Below are positions 1 through 3,714 of a DNA stretch of 35,268 nucleotides, piece by piece. Made by a program: the position numbers and the translations under genes. Below the pieces are notes generated by a model that saw only the letters and a list, made by a program, of their open reading frames with translations, was not told the DNA's origin and ran no database searches. How positions within the stretch are numbered: position 1 is the first letter of the stretch; every line of letters starts with the position of its first letter. The DNA comes from a virus: the UHGV virus genome UHGV-0140091; one strand, written 5' to 3'.

Positions 1-284
1 TAAAGACTCTCTTAGAAAGCCCTTAAAGATGCCCACCTTATTAATCATACCGTGGGCGAGTACGCCAAATTCTTTGATGAGGGATTGGAAGACCTCACTG
101 GTGTTTAGCCTATCAAGCTACTGCCAGAAAAACATTGTCGTTTGCATTTATTTTAAATTTGCAAAATAGACGCTACGCAACGAAAACTATTCAGAATATG
201 TACAACAAATTTCCCCACATTGTGTTACGTCTAACGCTCATGTATTGGTGTTTGAATTATACATATGCTGAATCATTTTCAGTT

Positions 285-328: not shown

Positions 329-404
329 TGGTACTGGTAGGTGGAATCGAACCACCGATGTTCCCTTATCAGGGGAGTGTTATAACCTTCTTAACTATAC
401 CAGC
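329..404 (-). tRNA. tRNA-Ile (anticodon GAT)
   Basis: Minus-strand cloverleaf: acceptor GCTGGTA/TACCAGT, D-arm GTTA/TAAC, anticodon loop CTGATAA, T-arm GGTGG-TTCGATT-CCACC, encoded CCA. One C-A mismatch at the base of the anticodon stem. Confidence 0.75.
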
Positions 405-405
405 T

Positions 406-482
406 TGGAGGTTCAGATGGGAATCGAACCCACATTCATAGGGCTTATGAGACCCTTGCATTACCTTATCTGCGACTGAACC
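406..482 (-). tRNA. tRNA-Met (anticodon CAT; initiator vs elongator vs Ile-lysidine not resolved)
   Basis: Acceptor GGTTCAG/CTGAACC, anticodon stem AGGGT/GCCCT with loop CTCATAA, T-arm GTGGG-TTCGATT-CCCAT, encoded CCA; 1 nt from the neighbouring tRNA. Confidence 0.8.
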
Positions 483-486
483 ATAT

Positions 487-562
487 TGGTAGAAGTGGAG
501 GGATTCGAACCCATCGCCTGTCAGATTAAAAGTCTGCCGCATCACCATTCTGCTACACTTCC
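487..562 (-). tRNA. tRNA-Lys (anticodon TTT), non-canonical T-stem
   Basis: Acceptor GGAAGTG/CACTTCT, anticodon loop CTTTTAA, T-loop TTCGAAT, encoded CCA. T-stem has only 3 GC pairs plus two mismatches. Confidence 0.55.
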
Positions 563-577
563 ATTAAATTATCTTTG

Positions 578-700
578 TAGATAAGCTACCCAGACTTGCT
601 TAAGGTCTGTAGCGATGTGCCTTGTTGGGTTTAAATCTAGAATTTACCCTTTCACCCTTTGTGGTCGCATACTCACAGGTAAGCTTAATAACTTATCTAC
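578..700 (-). ncRNA. candidate structured small RNA (~123 nt) closed by a long terminal helix
   Basis: Perfect 9-bp terminal pairing GUAGAUAAG (700-692) with CUUAUCUAC (586-578), extendable with a bulge (AAGCU/AGCUU). No ORF. Starts 8 nt after a GGUCUGG helix strand, the same spacing seen before two tRNAs. Confidence 0.35.
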
Positions 701-708
701 AAAGATAA

Positions 709-846
709 TTACCAGACCGTTGTTTATCATCTTAAGTGCTACCATTACACCAACTCGACATCTGCCGAGTGAAGGAATCGAACCTTCGCCTTTTCTTTAC
801 CGGAGAAATAGATTGTTTAAGTTTTGCTGTAAACGGTCTTCTGTAA
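709..846 (-). ncRNA. candidate Y RNA-like RNA with circularly permuted tRNA-like domain
   Basis: 5' strand UUACAGAAGACC (846-835) and 3' strand GGUCUGGUAA (718-709) form a bulged helix. Between them, in order: T-arm GAAGG-TTCGATT-CCTTC (787-771), acceptor 3' strand ACTCGGC (770-764), 4-nt loop, acceptor 5' strand GTCGAGT (759-753), TG, D-arm GTGT-AATGGTA-GCAC (750-736). No anticodon arm. Confidence 0.5.
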
Positions 847-853
847 ATTTGTT

Positions 854-933
854 GAGCCAGACCAAGTTTTAAATTTTCAAAATTAAATTGGCTTGAAATT
901 TCATACGTACTTGCTGTAATTGGTCTTCTGCTC
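854..933 (-). ncRNA. bulged-helix RNA module, copy b
   Basis: GAGCAGAAGACC (933-922) pairs with GGUCUGGCUC (863-854): upper helix AGACC/GGUCU, internal loop AGA vs G, lower helix GAGC/GCUC. Ends 7 nt upstream of the Y RNA-like element. Confidence 0.4.
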
Positions 934-1016
934 CTTTAAAGAATACTCGTAAGAACTCTTTAAGGGAGGGGCTAAATAGCCCTCTCAAACATCATTTTGA
1001 AATACTTATTATAATT

Positions 1017-1094
1017 TGGCGGTTACGAAGGGACTCGAACCCTCATCATCTCCCGTGACAGGGGAGTATTTTAACCATATTAAACTACATAACC
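1017..1094 (-). tRNA. tRNA-Asp (anticodon GTC)
   Basis: Acceptor GGTTATG/CGTAACC, perfect anticodon stem CTCCC/GGGAG with loop CTGTCAC, T-arm GAGGG-TTCGAGT-CCCTT, encoded CCA. Confidence 0.8.
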
Positions 1095-1100
1095 TTTATT

Positions 1101-1188
1101 TGGTGTGCCGTGTAGGAGTCGAACCTACCGAGTCTCAATGACAAGGGATTTACAGTCCCCACCGCTACCATCTACGGGATAACGACAC
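1101..1188 (-). tRNA. tRNA-Tyr (anticodon GTA), class II with long variable arm
   Basis: Acceptor GTGTCGT/ACGGCAC, anticodon stem GGGGA/TCCCT with loop CTGTAAA, ~15-nt variable arm, T-arm GTAGG-TTCGACT-CCTAC, encoded CCA; 88 nt. Confidence 0.75.
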
Positions 1189-1197
1189 ATTTAAATT

Positions 1198-1274
1198 TGG
1201 CGGTTAGTCAGGGATTCGAACCCTGTGCCATTCGCTTAACAGGCGACCGCACATACCTTATGTGCTTCCTAACC
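1198..1274 (-). tRNA. tRNA-Asn (anticodon GTT)
   Basis: Acceptor GGTTAGG/ACTAACC (one mismatch at 7:66), D-stem GCAC/GTGC, anticodon loop CTGTTAA, T-arm CAGGG-TTCGAAT-CCCTG, encoded CCA. Confidence 0.7.
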
Positions 1275-1282
1275 TTAATACA

Positions 1283-1348
1283 TTGCCAGACCGTGTTTTT
1301 TCTTTTATCCGCAAAAAGTATTTTGTTGCTGAATACGGTCTTCTGCAA
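1283..1348 (-). ncRNA. bulged-helix RNA module, copy c
   Basis: UUGCAGAAGACC (1348-1337) pairs with GGUCUGGCAA (1292-1283). Lies 3 nt after the CCA of the upstream tRNA and 8 nt before the 5' end of tRNA-Asn. Confidence 0.4.
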
Positions 1349-1351
1349 AAT

Positions 1352-1428
1352 TGGAGGCGGGTGCAGGAGTCGAACCTGCCGATACCATGCTAATGAGACA
1401 TGTGAGACGCCCTTTCTCTATACCCGCA
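1352..1428 (-). tRNA. tRNA with anticodon CAT (Met/Ile2-type), non-canonical; possible pseudo-tRNA
   Basis: Perfect T-arm GCAGG-TTCGACT-CCTGC, acceptor 3' ACCCGCC + T + CCA, anticodon stem CATGT/GCATG with loop CTCATTA. But T1-C72 mismatch, A at position 8, U at position 37 and a 6-nt variable loop. Confidence 0.5.
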
Positions 1429-1437
1429 ATTCTTAAT

Positions 1438-1515
1438 GACCAGACCAAATCTCTTCTTTGTCCGATTTACCTTCAGATGAATAAGATTAAGTTTGCTGTA
1501 ATTGGTCTTCTGTCA
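1438..1515 (-). ncRNA. bulged-helix RNA module, copy d
   Basis: UGACAGAAGACC (1515-1504) pairs with GGUCUGGUCA (1447-1438). Lies 4 nt after the CCA of tRNA-Glu and 8 nt before the next tRNA. Confidence 0.4.
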
Positions 1516-1519
1516 AAAC

Positions 1520-1597
1520 TGGTGTTCCAGAAGGGATTTGAACCCTCAAATATCCACTTTGAAAGAGTGGTGACTTTACCATTTTGTCTACTGGAAC
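1520..1597 (-). tRNA. tRNA-Glu (anticodon TTC)
   Basis: Acceptor GTTCCAG/CTGGAAC, perfect anticodon stem CCACT/AGTGG with loop CTTTCAA, T-arm GAGGG-TTCAAAT-CCCTT, encoded CCA. Confidence 0.8.
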
Positions 1598-1604
1598 ATT
1601 AATT

Positions 1605-1681
1605 TGGTCTCTGTTGGAGGACTTGAACCTCCGGCCTTACCGCCCCAAACGGAACGCTCTACCAAGCTGAGCTAAACAGAG
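1605..1681 (-). tRNA. tRNA-Pro (anticodon TGG)
   Basis: Acceptor CTCTGTT/AACAGAG, D-arm GCTC-AGCTTGGTA-GAGC, anticodon loop TTTGGGG, T-arm GGAGG-TTCAAGT-CCTCC, encoded CCA. One T-T mismatch in the anticodon stem. Confidence 0.7.
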
Positions 1682-1707: not shown

Positions 1708-1737
1708 ACTTTAACATTATTTTTTAGTGATTGTCAA
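1708..1737 (-). promoter_or_regulatory. sigma70-like promoter candidate upstream of the tRNA array
   Basis: Minus strand TTGACA (1737-1732), 18-nt spacer, TAAAGT (1713-1708). Confidence 0.4.
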
Positions 1738-1799: not shown

Positions 1800-1829
1800 A
1801 TATTAAAGGGTATCAAACACATTGTCAAT
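1800..1829 (-). promoter_or_regulatory. sigma70-like promoter candidate upstream of the tRNA array
   Basis: Minus strand TTGACA (1829-1824), 18-nt spacer, TAATAT (1805-1800); sits between the stop of the vWA gene and the first tRNA. Confidence 0.5.
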
Positions 1830-1846: not shown

Positions 1847-3261
1847 TTACCAGATATAACGGTCAATCATTACTGCTTTGAGCATTACGCTGATTGGGTC
1901 AAACTTCTCACCACCAAGCAGAGCTTTTAAAGTGGCTGGAGAGAAACCAGACACCATTGCTACACCGTTATCCTTAACAGATACTTCGCAAGTGCCATTA
2001 CGGTTTGCTAAGTACCAGAATACCAGTTGTGGCATCTCATATCCAGCTTTTTTGTACTTGCTCTGAATTGCTTCAAAGTTTGTACGACCGTTAGCTCCAT
2101 CAACCTGATTGAACTCCATATCAGAGAAGATGATAAGCTTACTTGGCATATCTTTCTGAGTCAAGTTGTTTCTTTTACCTGTCTCAAGAATACGGTCAAA
2201 AGCTGCTTGTAAGTTAGTTGAGCCATATTCAACGTGTCGCATCACCTGACGATGACGGTTTCGTAAATCACCACTCAGTTCAATGAAGTGAGGGTTTGTT
2301 GAATAAACCATCAACTCATTCTTAAAGCAACCTGTATTACGTTCTGCTACATACAATGCAAGTGAAACACCAATATCAAGAGCAGTAATTGAACCAAAAT
2401 TCACCCAAGACATTGAACTTGAAACATCAGACATACATAGAATGTTTTCACCCTCTGCCATCCAGTTTGGTAGTGCTTTCCACTGCTCATTAGCAACATC
2501 TGCATTACCATACTTAACAGATTTAATCACATCGTATGGGTAAACAGCACCAGCATTAATCTTAGCCTCACCCTTTGATAATGACTCGATGTAAGCTTTG
2601 TAGCGTTCTCCATCTTTACGGTTAAACAGTTTTTGGTAACGTGCAGCAGCAAGTGAAGGAATCTTACTGTAGTCAATCTTACCAAACTCATTAGCAGAGA
2701 TTTTTTGCTCAACTGTATCAGATAGTGCAGACAACAGTGTGCGGTACTCTTTCTCACTCAAGTTTGCAAACTTGCAGAAACGTTTTACAAACTGTTTGTG
2801 ACGTGGTTTTACTCGTGGTAACCACTTAGCTGCTAAACCTGCTGTTGCAGGGTCTAGTAATGCTGCTTCTAAATGTTTGAAGGCATCTGTCTCGAAACGA
2901 GTACCTACAAAGATTTTGAAGTCATCAAAGCGACCAAGCTCTGCAATCTTATCCATAATGCGAAGAACCTGCGTAGGTTCTAAAACTTTATCTTCAATCG
3001 CTTGAAGTAAAACAGTTCGGAAAGCTTTACGCTCACCATACCTTCTCGTACATCTCGCATATGCAGTAAAATACGAACTGCAACATCAACATCCTCATGC
3101 AAAGCTTTGTAGAACAGGTCTGGTAAGATTTCTACATTGCTACGGCTTGAACCAGCAGCTTTGTAAAAGTCTACAAGAGCAGACATTGATGAAGTATGGT
3201 TTGCAGCACCATTTTCAGTTCGACCTGCATGAAGGTGCGCATGTTTAAATAATTCGCTCAT
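1847..3261 (-). pseudogene. vWA-domain protein with N-terminal helical domain (DUF2828-like by recollection; Ro60/TROVE-like architecture), split by a -1 frameshift
   Basis: Two ORFs (2980-3261 and 1847-2956) overlap in different frames. The downstream frame stays open upstream of its ATG to ~3130 and reads YGERKAFRTVLLQAIEDKVLEPTQVLRIMDKI. Joining ...RDVREG to YGERK... at ~3038-3042 restores one ~470-aa protein. C-terminal part has the vWA MIDAS motif DVSSS. Confidence 0.6.
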
Positions 3262-3342: not shown

Positions 3343-3714
3343 TTATTTTTTGAGAGTCGCTACAGCAGAGAACGTTGGTTTGTTATCTGTCTGAGACTGA
3401 CCACCATTATCAGGGGTCTTCTTAGTGTCTGCTGCAATCGCTTTCATCTCACCTGCTGAGTGAGTCATGATGGTTTTACCAGCCTCCATCATCGACTTCA
3501 GGTTTACATCGTCAGTCGTCAAACCGAACTCTGCAAGCTTAGCAGCATCCCTTGTAACAACCGCCTCAAACAACTTTGCAGCAAACTCAGCAGAATTATC
3601 AATGGTCAGTTGAGCTTTTACGAGTGAGCTTTTGTTACGAGAGCCTTTTGGTCTTCCAGATGGGTTTCCAGACTGGCCTTTTTTAAACTGGCCTTTGTTT
3701 GTTCTGTTTTTCAT
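3343..3714 (-). CDS. hypothetical protein with N-terminal GNPSGRPKG basic motif
   Basis: 123-aa ORF with AAGAGG ribosome-binding site upstream of the ATG. Confidence 0.6.
   Translation of the reverse strand: MKNRTNKGQFKKGQSGNPSGRPKGSRNKSSLVKAQLTIDNSAEFAAKLFEAVVTRDAAKLAEFGLTTDDVNLKSMMEAGKTIMTHSAGEMKAIAADTKKTPDNGGQSQTDNKPTFSAVATLKK

What the first reader, a model, noticed from the sequence alone, without database searches (positions are those of the whole stretch)
854..1515. Four-copy bulged-helix RNA module with compensatory base changes, nested at fixed spacing between tRNA genes
The pair ...NNNC-AGA-AGACC / GGUCU-G-GNNN... occurs four times on the minus strand (846-835 with 718-709; 933-922 with 863-854; 1348-1337 with 1292-1283; 1515-1504 with 1447-1438). 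The upper 5-bp helix AGACC/GGUCU and the 3-nt versus 1-nt internal loop are invariant. The lower 4-bp helix differs in every copy yet stays complementary (UUAC/GUAA, GAGC/GCUC, UUGC/GCAA, UGAC/GUCA), which is the pattern expected for a selected RNA helix. Two copies sit 3-4 nt after the CCA of one tRNA and 8 nt before the next. These could be protein-binding sites, processing signals or small stable RNAs analogous to the uncharacterised stable RNAs in the T4 tRNA cluster.
Basis: seen in the sequence. Interest (0 to 1): 0.75.

Follow-up and report, generated by a model that had tools for sequence, protein, structure and literature searches.

The report
Phage Y-RNA-like partners of Ro60-like protein
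The four repeated hairpin modules in this Felix O1-type phage's tRNA cluster belong to a widespread, undescribed family of small RNAs that sit next to a Ro60-like protein gene, probably bind that protein, and carry the same signature as the unexplained "Class I" RNAs of social amoebae.

Summary
CAGAAGACC and GGTCTGG each occur four times on the minus strand, paired as described, and nowhere else as a pair in 35 kb.

The window is a Felixounavirus. The gene directly upstream (DUF2828 plus a vWA domain) folds like Ro60/Rsr.

Each module is a 4-bp clamp (P1), an AGA/G internal loop, and a 7-8 bp helix (P2, A-U and G-C at its base). A conserved single-stranded UUACAGCAA follows the helix, then a variable insert. 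The insert of module D (709-846) is a permuted tRNA-like domain laid out as in bacterial YrlA Y RNA.

The same signature (A-AGR-helix, WWCAGCAA, YCU-G) recurs beside DUF2828 genes:
- 75 diverse viral contigs: 72 modules on the gene strand, 3 on the other.
- 80 bacterial-genome loci: 32 versus 4.
- Yersinia, Aeromonas, Campylobacter, Cronobacter and Mycobacterium phages.

Rfam has no family for it. The nearest models are YrlA and Dictyostelium Class I RNA, both below threshold. Class I RNA shares the terminal stem, CUUACAGCAA and the AAG...CUG ends.

Best reading: Y-RNA-like ligands of the phage Ro60-like protein, released from the tRNA precursor. Binding is inferred, not shown. I rate it a new variant of a known kind, with a testable link to Class I RNAs.

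The parts
1437..1515 (-). Module A, in the tRNA-Glu / tRNA-Met spacer. P1 is UGAC (1515-1512) with GUCA (1440-1437). The internal loop is AGA (1511-1509) opposite G1441. P2 is AGACCAA (1508-1502) with UUGGUCU (1448-1442). The UUACAGCAA motif lies at 1501-1493, followed by a 44-nt variable insert.
1283..1348 (-). Module B, in the tRNA-Met / tRNA-Asn spacer. P1 is UUGC/GCAA, P2 is AGACCGU/ACGGUCU, the motif AUUCAGCAA lies at 1334-1326, and the insert is 31 nt. It was the best hit in the window both for a model built only from unrelated phages (19.3 bits, E 0.014) and for Rfam's Dictyostelium Class I model (24 bits).
854..933 (-). Module C, first of a tandem pair in the tRNA-Asp / tRNA-Lys gap. 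P1 is GAGC/GCUC, P2 is AGACCAA/UUGGUCU, the motif UUACAGCAA lies at 919-911, and the insert is a 45-nt AU-rich hairpin.
709..846 (-). Module D, the YrlA-like copy. P1 is UUAC/GUAA, P2 is AGACCGUU/AACGGUCU, and the motif UUACAGCAA lies at 832-824. The insert is a permuted tRNA-like domain: V arm 808-792, T arm GAAGGUUCGAUUCCUUC 787-771, closed acceptor-like hairpin ACUCGGC-AGAU-GUCGAGU 770-753, and D arm GUGUAAUGGUAGCAC 750-736.
   Evidence: (tRNA model 22 bits over the V/T arms)
1847..3261 (-). Ro60-like protein gene (DUF2828 PF11443 plus DUF7788/vWA PF25043), directly upstream on the same strand. In this window it is split by a 1-nt deletion at about 3037. Close relatives carry an intact 471-aa gene.
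1800..1828 (-). Sigma-70-like promoter (TTGACA-17-TAATAT) between the Ro60-like gene and tRNA-Pro. It is a likely start of the tRNA + module transcript.
1708..1737 (-). Second sigma-70-like promoter (TTGACA-18-TAAAGT, with an extended -10 TG) just upstream of tRNA-Pro.
329..1681 (-). Context: a nine-gene tRNA array (Pro, Glu, Met, Asn, Tyr, Asp, Lys, Met, Ile) in which the four modules are embedded. No terminator-like site was found on the minus strand inside it.

Best explanation
The four modules are small non-coding RNAs of a Y-RNA-like kind.

**Proposed pathway**
- They are transcribed with the tRNAs from the promoters at about 1828-1708 and released when RNase P and the tRNA 3'-end nucleases cut out the neighbouring tRNAs (inferred).
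- Each folds so that its two ends form a clamp: P1, an AGA/G internal loop, then a 7-8 bp helix whose first pairs are always A-U and G-C. The helix presents a single-stranded UUACAGCAA (structure shown by sequence, folding and comparison).
- This constant part is the binding site for the Ro60-like DUF2828/vWA protein encoded directly upstream (inferred from co-localisation and strand bias; binding not shown).
- The variable inner part is the effector end. In module D it is a closed, permuted tRNA-like L-shape as in bacterial YrlA, which could recruit or decoy tRNA-binding enzymes. In modules A-C it is a short, fast-evolving hairpin.
- By analogy with Ro60-Y RNA particles, the RNAs would gate or tether the ring protein to RNA-processing or RNA-decay factors during infection. 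The orthologous protein of phage Bas63 (gp130) is reported to counter the Ppl defence system.
For: **Structure**
- The pairs are exact and found only here in the window.
- Folds agree with the proposed architecture.
- All four modules are syntenic in Felixounavirus, Suspvirus and Mooglevirus. Cores are conserved, inserts diverge, and helices show compensatory or G-U changes.
- The acceptor-like hairpin of module D has three different sequences that all pair. RNAalifold finds both-sides changes in 10 of 19 pairs.

**Protein partner**
- The upstream protein matches PF11443 and PF25043.
- Its AF2 model (pLDDT 84, pTM 0.86) gives eleven top full-length Foldseek hits, all Ro60/Rsr/TROVE structures (E 6e-8 to 4e-6, TM 0.45-0.64).
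- Homologues in mycobacteriophages are annotated 'Ro-like RNA binding protein'.
- Bas63 gp130 is described as Ro60-like, sitting upstream of the tRNAs and acting as a Ppl counter-defence gene. Its authors guessed that Y RNAs lie among the tRNAs (PMC11482910).

**Association of RNA and gene**
- 75 diverse IMG/VR loci chosen only for the protein: 72 modules on the gene strand against 3 on the other (binomial p 4e-18). Shuffles give 3-7 for both strands together. Most lie within 1 kb of the gene.
- 80 bacterial-genome loci: 32 against 4.
- Modules seen by eye in Yersinia P778, Aeromonas 4_4572, Campylobacter F368, Cronobacter S13 and Mycobacterium phage Itos.
- Reverse test from the RNA pattern alone: 14 of 51 hits whose helix closes have a DUF2828 gene in the stretch held, against 1 of 70 where it does not close (Fisher p 1.7e-5).
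- Positions my scanner left free are still conserved: U 91% two bases before CAGCA, A 89% after it, and no C before the helix.
- Some mini-modules sit right against the Shine-Dalgarno sequence of the DUF2828 gene, as expected for an autoregulatory binding site.

**Likeness to Y RNA**
- The order V-T-AS-D matches Salmonella YrlA (10.1101/312249; PMC4201824).
- Two modules in L085 hit Rfam YrlA over the full model at 38.9 and 28.7 bits.
Against: - No binding, expression or end-mapping data exist for these RNAs.
- The canonical Ro60/Rsr recognition motifs (GGUCCGA in animals, GNCGAAN0-1G in bacteria; PMC4201824) are absent.
- Rfam YrlA does not reach its threshold, and gives no hit at all on the window's module D.
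- The strict signature was found in only 38 of 75 protein-selected loci, although looser variants such as UUGGUUCC...GGAACCAG exist in others.
- About 15 clear modules from the reverse test lie in tRNA arrays with no DUF2828 gene in the stretch held. Many of those stretches are short.
- In this very window the Ro60-like gene is frameshifted. If that is real, the RNAs persist here without their proposed partner.
- In Dictyostelium the one proven direct binder of a Class I RNA is an RRM protein, not a Ro-like one.
Confidence: 0.68

Rival explanations
1. The RNA family is real but has a different partner. The conserved stem plus UUACAGCAA is recognised by a host factor or another phage protein, and proximity to the DUF2828 gene reflects shared regulation or a shared pathway rather than direct binding.
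For: - In Dictyostelium the only shown direct binder of a Class I RNA with the same motif is the RRM protein Rnp1A/CIBP (PMC7919456; 10.1101/2020.04.05.026054).
- Some clear modules lie in tRNA arrays with no DUF2828 gene in the stretch held.
- The Ro60-like gene is frameshifted in this window.
Against: - Strand-specific adjacency holds across very distant phages and bacterial loci.
- The reverse test is significant.
- Mini-modules abut the gene's own ribosome-binding site.
- The protein has the fold of a known stem-binding RNA chaperone ring.
Confidence: 0.14
2. The modules are structural spacers or processing signals of the polycistronic tRNA precursor. They would be clamps that insulate tRNA folding or guide RNase E, P or III, and have no life of their own after cleavage.
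For: - Two copies sit 3-4 nt after a CCA and 8-9 nt before the next tRNA.
- The extra P1 clamp is seen only in tRNA-embedded lineages, Ounavirinae and P778.
- Other phage tRNA arrays also contain modules.
Against: - The same module is abundant next to DUF2828 genes where there are no tRNAs, for example L036, L075 and Aeromonas 4_4572.
- A 9-nt single-stranded motif conserved from Mycobacterium to Campylobacter phages is not expected of a spacer.
- P1 plus P2 is 11-12 bp with an internal loop, which is too short for RNase III (inference).
- Most tRNA junctions in the same array have only 1-9 nt spacers and evidently need no such element.
Confidence: 0.08
3. The modules are purely cis-acting operators. 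The protein binds them on the long transcript to control translation or decay, and they are not separate small RNAs.
For: Mini-modules with 14-24-nt inserts lie directly before the Shine-Dalgarno sequence of the DUF2828 gene in L018, L024, L027, L037 and L039. In Vibrio phage VH7D, a UUUACAGCAA lies in the gene's leader.
Against: - In the window the modules lie downstream of the gene, behind two separate promoters, among tRNAs that are cut out of the transcript.
- Large effector inserts, including tRNA-like domains, make no sense for a simple operator.
Confidence: 0.05
4. The modules are decayed tRNA pseudogenes or a small mobile DNA repeat (MITE or recombination site) that spread within the tRNA cluster.
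For: - Modules A-C are tRNA-sized (66-80 nt) and occupy tRNA-like slots. Module D contains T and D arms.
- Relatives show insertion and deletion of other short elements between tRNAs.
Against: - All four copies are syntenic and retained in three genera, with compensatory changes.
- The strand bias relative to the gene is 72:3.
- G-U pairs work only at the RNA level.
- There are no target-site duplications. The flanking 4 nt are inverted, not direct.
Confidence: 0.04

Closest known systems
Bacterial Y RNAs of the YrlA type with Ro60/Rsr (Rfam RF02553; Chen et al. 2014, PMC4201824; Wang et al. 2018, 10.1101/312249)
   Same: - The RNA genes lie next to a Ro60-fold gene.
- The 5' and 3' ends pair into a stem that carries a conserved presumed protein site.
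- The design is modular, with a variable effector domain.
- Module D has the same permuted tRNA-like domain (V, T, closed acceptor-like hairpin, D).
- Several Y RNAs occur per locus, one tRNA-like and others short, like YrlA and YrlB.
   Different: - The protein is DUF2828, not TROVE, by sequence. It has no phmmer hit to PDB, and a profile search gives only E 0.7 to the Ro60 vWA domain.
- The recognition motif is different: A-AGR helix, UUACAGCAA and YCU-G instead of GNCGAAN0-1G or GGUCCGA.
- The YrlA model misses the window copy and stays below threshold elsewhere.
- The modules are embedded in a tRNA operon.
Class I RNAs of dictyostelid social amoebae (Rfam RF01414; Aspegren 2004, Avesson 2011, Kjellin 2021 PMC7919456)
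   Same: - Both have a short terminal stem joining the 5' and 3' ends, with structure conserved and sequence free.
- The conserved motif directly 3' of the 5' stem strand is CCUUACAGCAA in Class I RNA and UUACAGCAA or WUUCAGCAA here.
- Both have the conserved ends AAG...CUG(U).
- The remainder is variable, there are many copies, and the length is about 40-140 nt.
- The Rfam Class I model picks modules B, A and D as weak hits of 24, 19.7 and 12.8 bits.
   Different: - Class I RNAs are eukaryotic Pol II/III genes with a DUSE promoter, reported as unique to Dictyostelia.
- In most phage modules the stem-to-CAGCAA distance is one nucleotide shorter (7 bp + 3 nt against 7 bp + 4 nt).
- Scores are below the gathering threshold (41.5 bits).
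- The known direct binder is an RRM protein.
- Whether Dictyostelium has a DUF2828 protein could not be checked here.
Phage Ro60 with Y-RNA-like RNAs (Thermus phage phiLo Yrl1/Yrl2, PMC12135203; mycobacteriophages, CcrColossus and phage G in Chen 2014)
   Same: A phage-encoded Ro60-fold ring protein has small stem-loop RNAs encoded beside it. The proposed role is hijacking host RNA decay or counter-defence.
   Different: Those use canonical TROVE proteins and the CGAA motif. This family uses DUF2828 and a different motif. It is much more widespread in phages, with 710 phage records carrying the gene.
T4 stable RNAs species 1 and 2 (rnaC, rnaD)
   Same: They are small stable RNAs encoded inside a phage tRNA cluster and released by tRNA-processing enzymes. 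rnaC has a tRNA-like T arm and acceptor 3' end.
   Different: They have no AGR-helix/CAGCAA/YCU-G module. The resemblance is positional only.

Membership tests
Y RNA / Ro60 RNP (general) | Partner protein is a Ro60 orthologue (TROVE HEAT-repeat ring plus vWA domain) | tested here: inconclusive
   The fold test is met. The AF2 model's top 11 PDB matches are all full-length Ro60/Rsr/TROVE, and a DxSxS MIDAS motif is present. The sequence test is not met: Pfam assigns DUF2828/DUF7788, not TROVE, and the PDB sequence searches give no hit (phmmer) or E of about 0.7 (profile).
Y RNA / Ro60 RNP (general) | 5' and 3' ends pair into a stem that carries a conserved, bulged protein-binding helix | tested here: met
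   The P1 / AGA-G loop / P2 architecture is present in all four copies. The A-U and G-C base pairs and flanking A/G are conserved family-wide.
Y RNA / Ro60 RNP (general) | Canonical Ro60 recognition sequence (GGUCCGA in animals; GNCGAAN0-1G in bacteria and phage phiLo) | tested here: not met
   The 5' strand reads NNNC-AGA-AGACC. There is no CGAA motif in any of the four modules, compared with the motifs given in PMC4201824 and PMC12135203.
Y RNA / Ro60 RNP (general) | Physical association of the RNA with the Ro60 protein | not testable with these tools
   Only genomic association is shown: strand bias 72:3 and 32:4, and the reverse test at p 1.7e-5.
YrlA (Rfam RF02553) | tRNA-like domain in the order V arm, T arm, closed acceptor-like stem, D arm, between the two strands of the terminal stem | tested here: met
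   Module D has V 808-792, T 787-771, AS 770-753 and D 750-736. The AS and T stems covary across relatives.
YrlA (Rfam RF02553) | Covariance-model score at or above the gathering threshold (69 bits) | tested here: not met
   There is no YrlA hit on the window at E up to 10. The best hits in the family are 38.9 and 28.7 bits in L085.
Dictyostelium Class I RNA (Rfam RF01414) | Short (about 6 bp) stem joining the 5' and 3' ends, with structure rather than sequence conserved | tested here: met
   P2 is 7-8 bp. Family-wide, 5 of 7 pairs show changes on both sides, though that set was selected for pairing. Unselected orthologues keep the pairing.
Dictyostelium Class I RNA (Rfam RF01414) | Conserved 11-nt motif CCUUACAGCAA directly 3' of the 5' stem strand | tested here: met
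   UUACAGCAA occurs in three copies and AUUCAGCAA in one, immediately after P2. That is 9 of the 11 positions, including four of the five reported as near-invariant (C6, C9, A10, A11). The fifth, U3, is U in three of the window copies and A in module B, and is only 43% U across the phage family.
Dictyostelium Class I RNA (Rfam RF01414) | Conserved termini AAG... and ...CUG(U) | tested here: met
   The window has A-AGACC...GGUCU-G. Family-wide, the base before the helix is A 63% or U 32%, followed by A, G, R, and the 3' strand ends Y-C-U-G (paper text).
Dictyostelium Class I RNA (Rfam RF01414) | Covariance-model score at or above the gathering threshold (41.5 bits) | tested here: not met
   The scores are 24.0, 19.7 and 12.8 bits for modules B, A and D.
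Dictyostelium Class I RNA (Rfam RF01414) | Dictyostelid gene context (DUSE promoter; organism encodes the partner) | not testable with these tools
   The promoter criterion does not apply to a phage. Whether Dictyostelium encodes a DUF2828 protein, for example the uncharacterised Class I interactor DDB_G0281243, could not be looked up.

The most novel reading that the evidence does not exclude
The phage modules and the dictyostelid Class I RNAs are one ancient RNA family. It is the cognate small-RNA ligand of DUF2828 proteins, a second Ro60-like lineage found in phages, mimivirus-like viruses and eukaryotes. On this reading, Class I RNAs, whose function has been unknown since 2004 and which were thought unique to social amoebae, are the 'Y RNAs' of that lineage. 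A Dictyostelium DUF2828 protein, possibly the uncharacterised DdR-21 interactor DDB_G0281243, would bind their stem plus CUUACAGCAA.
Probability: 0.3. Interest if true: 0.9.

Novelty: new variant of a known kind. Interest (0 to 1): 0.78.

Why it matters
- **A partner RNA for a common phage protein.** Ro60-like DUF2828 proteins are encoded by hundreds of sequenced phages: Felix O1-like, Listeria P100-like, Campylobacter, Vibrio, Aeromonas and Staphylococcus phages, and mycobacteriophages. One of them is reported to counter a bacterial defence system. Their RNA partners have only been guessed at.
- **A concrete candidate.** This finding supplies a sequence-defined candidate RNA family, with a simple signature that can be mutated and searched for. 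It shows that the family is modular like Y RNAs, including tRNA mimics.
- **Annotation.** It explains the 'pseudo-tRNA' and 'tRNA-OTHER' calls and the odd spacers in many phage tRNA clusters.
- **A testable hypothesis for Class I RNAs.** The unexpected identity of the signature with Dictyostelium Class I RNAs gives a direct hypothesis for a 20-year-old orphan RNA class.

Tried and rejected
**Known RNA families and motifs**
- Rfam scans of the region and of relatives found no known ribozyme, riboswitch or sRNA family.
- Hairpin-ribozyme loop A (AGAA / N-GUC): the 3' strand offers only 1-2 unpaired bases, not four. Rejected by inspection.
- Archaeal bulge-helix-bulge splicing motif with permuted tRNA processing: the geometry is 4 bp / 3x1 loop / 7-8 bp, not 3-4-3, and there is no encoded CCA or anticodon loop. 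Rejected.
- Kink-turn: the pairs after the 3-nt bulge are Watson-Crick A-U and G-C, not tandem G-A. Rejected.
- Integron attC-like or MITE DNA element: rejected on strand bias, G-U pairs and the absence of direct repeats.
- T4 rnaC and rnaD: no shared module.

**Approaches that did not work**
- Covariance model R1 was built from 45 loop-trimmed modules of unrelated phages. It ranked modules B and A first in the 35-kb window (19.3 and 13.9 bits). It cannot span the long inserts and performed poorly with filters off, so I relied on the pattern scanner with strand and shuffle controls.
- The pairing count on the selected set is circular for percentage paired. I used it only to list pair types.

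**Attempts to check a Dictyostelium DUF2828 protein**
- The afdb50 fold library was not available.
- Literature and supplement searches for DDB_G0281243, DUF2828, vWA or conserved peptides found nothing usable.

**Other**
- DUF5681, the next gene upstream, co-occurs only in close relatives, so it is not part of the general system.
Full report
**What the window is.** The minus strand of 1-1900 is the start of a tRNA cluster: ARAGORN and Rfam find Pro, Glu, Met, Asn, Tyr, Asp, Lys, Met and Ile. The region is 98.6% identical to Escherichia phage LTH02 and other Felixounavirus genomes, and 302 phage records match. A 241-nt piece is 100% identical to Salmonella phage SLAM_phiST56.

**The observation.**
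- CAGAAGACC occurs four times, all on the minus strand. GGTCTGG occurs four times on that strand at the matching places.
- The 4 nt outside each half differ between copies but are complementary.
- Single-sequence folds of all four give the same picture: P1 (4 bp), an internal loop of AGA against G, then P2.
- P2 is really 7-8 bp (AGACCNN/NNGGUCU). Its inner pairs differ between copies: AA/UU or GU/AC.
- A conserved single-stranded UUACAGCAA (AUUCAGCAA in module B) follows P2 on the 5' side.
- Two copies sit between tRNAs. The other two are tandem in the Asp-Lys gap.

**Module D contains a permuted tRNA-like domain.**
- Between the P2 strands of the 846-709 copy lie, in order, a V-like hairpin, a canonical T arm (GAAGGUUCGAUUCCUUC), a 7-bp hairpin closed by AGAU, and a D arm (GUGUAAUGGUAGCAC).
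- The two strands of the closed hairpin are what would be the acceptor stem of a tRNA.
- The tRNA model matches the V and T part at 22 bits.
- This is the layout of the bacterial Y RNA YrlA: V, T, closed acceptor-like stem, D, with the 'anticodon stem' running into the protein-binding stem (PMC4201824; 10.1101/312249).
- In Suspvirus and Mooglevirus relatives the closed hairpin has quite different sequences (ACACG...CGUGU; ACCCUUC...GAAGGGU) that still pair. RNAalifold reports changes on both sides in 10 of 19 predicted pairs.

**The neighbouring gene.**
- The ORF directly upstream on the same strand matches Pfam DUF2828 and DUF7788, a vWA domain, and PHROG 850 'RNA-binding protein'.
- It has no detectable sequence match to solved structures. 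A profile search gives only E 0.7 to the vWA part of Ro60.
- An AlphaFold2 model from a 42-sequence alignment (pLDDT 84, pTM 0.86) was searched against the PDB. Its eleven best matches, all full length, are Xenopus and human Ro60, Deinococcus Rsr and Thermus phage phiLo Ro60 (E 6e-8 to 4e-6).
- The family is in 710 phage records. Mycobacteriophage annotators already call it 'Ro-like RNA binding protein'.
- A 2024 preprint on the Felixounavirus Bas63 found that the orthologue gp130 resembles Ro60 and counters the Ppl defence system. Its authors speculated that some of the downstream 'tRNA genes' might be Y RNAs, but identified none (PMC11482910).
- A 2025 study of a Listeria P100-like phage made a similar guess (PMC12282133).
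- In this window the gene carries a 1-nt deletion in a GGG run at about 3037.

**The module is a widespread family tied to that gene.**
- Reading the flanks of distant homologues showed the same element: a helix starting A-G-R, followed by WWWCAGCAA, with a complementary 3' strand ending Y-C-U and then G. It appears in Yersinia phage P778, Aeromonas 4_4572, Campylobacter F368, Cronobacter S13 and Mycobacterium phage Itos, often in tandem arrays and sometimes with tRNA-like inserts.
- I wrote a strict scanner for this signature.
  - In 75 diverse IMG/VR loci fetched only by protein similarity (about 40% identity to the window protein), it finds 72 modules on the gene strand and 3 on the other. 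Block shuffles give 3-7 for both strands together. 38 loci have at least one (binomial p 4e-18).
  - Looser variants occur in other loci.
  - In 80 bacterial-genome loci, mostly MAGs and probably often prophage, the counts are 32 against 4.
  - In the whole window it finds the four modules and nothing else.
- Positions the scanner did not constrain are conserved: U 91% at -2 and A/U at -1 of CAGCA, A 89% after it, and A/U but never C before the helix.
- Reverse test. An exact 14-base pattern, AAAGGNNNNNTACAGCAAA, was scanned over IMG/VR. Of 51 hits whose helix closes, 14 have a DUF2828 gene in the stretch held, against 1 of 70 that do not close (Fisher p 1.7e-5). Many of the remaining closed hits sit beside tRNAs in short stretches.
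- Inserts range from 14 to about 240 nt and include tRNA-like domains and other recurrent domains. This is the modular design of Y RNAs.
- Several mini-modules abut the gene's Shine-Dalgarno sequence, which suggests autoregulation.

**Within Ounavirinae.** All four modules are syntenic in Felixounavirus, Suspvirus and Mooglevirus. P1, the loop, P2 and the motif are nearly invariant while the inserts diverge. P1 of module B changes from UUGC/GCAA to UUAC/GUAA. Other changes give G-U pairs, which argue for selection on RNA rather than DNA.

**Comparison with known families.**
- Rfam 15 has no family that reaches threshold.
- YrlA (RF02553) gives full-length but sub-threshold matches on two modules of one IMG/VR phage (38.9 and 28.7 bits against 69), and none on the window.
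- The Rfam model for Dictyostelium Class I RNAs (RF01414) gives weak hits on modules B, A and D (24, 19.7 and 12.8 bits against 41.5).
- The alignment shows why. The Class I consensus is a 6-bp terminal stem, then CUUACAGCAA, a variable region, the 3' stem strand, then UG.
- The published description lists the same features as the phage family: a short stem with compensatory changes, an unstructured 11-nt motif next to the 5' stem strand, and conserved AAG start and CUGU end (PMC7919456). The spacing differs by one nucleotide in most phage modules.
- That paper reports Class I RNAs as unique to Dictyostelia. The one shown direct binder is the RRM protein Rnp1A. Another pulled-down protein, DDB_G0281243, has no known function.
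- DUF2828 is known from plants and mimivirus-like sequences. I could not determine whether dictyostelids have it.

**How it most likely works.**
- Shown: the structure, its conservation and covariation, the Ro60-like fold of the neighbouring protein, and the strong strand-specific genomic association of the RNA signature with that gene family.
- Inferred:
  - The modules are co-transcribed with the tRNAs from the two near-consensus promoters at 1828-1800 and 1737-1708, with no terminator-like site inside the array.
  - They are released by tRNA processing.
  - The constant clamp plus UUACAGCAA is the binding site of the Ro60-like protein.
  - The inserts act as effector ends. Module D would be a tRNA mimic.
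  - The particle acts on RNA metabolism or counter-defence.
- Rivals are scored in the Rival explanations section: a different protein partner, mere tRNA-precursor spacers, cis-operators only, or pseudogenes and mobile DNA. The main uncertainty is the absence of any binding or expression data.

**Verdict.** It is best filed as a new variant of the Ro60/Y-RNA kind: a different protein family by sequence, a different recognition motif, and a tRNA-operon context. It fails the formal membership tests for YrlA and for Class I RNA on model score. It shares the defining architecture of both.

Noticed in passing
window ~3037 (gene 1847-3261, minus strand): The Ro60-like gene has a 1-nt deletion in a GGG run relative to LTH02. 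This splits it into 93-aa and 369-aa ORFs inside the conserved RDVREGMGER motif. It could be a sequencing error or a real pseudogene.
   Followed up: partly
window 568-709 (minus strand): An 18-bp inverted repeat (AUUAUCUUUGUAGAUAAG / CUUAUCUACAAAGAUAAU) encloses about 105 nt between module D and tRNA-Lys. It overlaps the last base of P1 of module D. There is no Rfam match and its function is unknown.
   Followed up: no
window 113-280 (minus strand); L003 3094-3278: Sub-threshold matches to the permuted tmRNA model in the spacer after tRNA-Ile: 22 bits here and 29 bits in phage KhF3, against a threshold of 47.
   Followed up: no
L003 2921-2998 (KhF3, Lys-Met) and L006 7401-7482 (Yersinia P778, Met-Ile): A different inserted element of about 75 nt shares the core CUGCGCGGCUGGAAACACCCACUCAACAG, closed by a variable outer helix. 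It is absent at that position in the window and has no Rfam match.
   Followed up: partly
L002 ~1715-1820 and 2309-2377 (phage SP22): Two further lineage-specific inserts, about 105 nt before tRNA-Pro and about 60 nt between tRNA-Asn and tRNA-Tyr. The spacers of this tRNA array evidently gain and lose small structured elements.
   Followed up: no
L009 5396-5638 (Cronobacter phage S13): Two tRNA-shaped RNAs, annotated tRNA-Ser (121 nt) and tRNA-OTHER (113 nt), have normal acceptor ends but carry GUAUUCAGCA in a greatly expanded anticodon arm. They lie downstream of the DUF2828 gene and are followed by a YrlA-like module.
   Followed up: no
L018 3954-3987, L024 1764-1796, L027 2859-2891, L037 3950-3986, L039 3903-3938: Mini-modules with 14-24-nt inserts end only a few bases before the Shine-Dalgarno sequence of the DUF2828 gene. 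This suggests translational autoregulation.
   Followed up: partly
modules in L018, L019, L024, L027, L037: A recurrent non-tRNA effector insert, GAACCUUUCUGGAGGGGAAAGCAAAAACUCGCCAAAA, sits inside the modules. It is a second conserved effector domain type.
   Followed up: no
window 3343-3714 (minus strand): The DUF5681 gene directly upstream of the Ro60-like gene is conserved only in Ounavirinae-like relatives (P778, L017). It is not found in other DUF2828 loci.
   Followed up: yes
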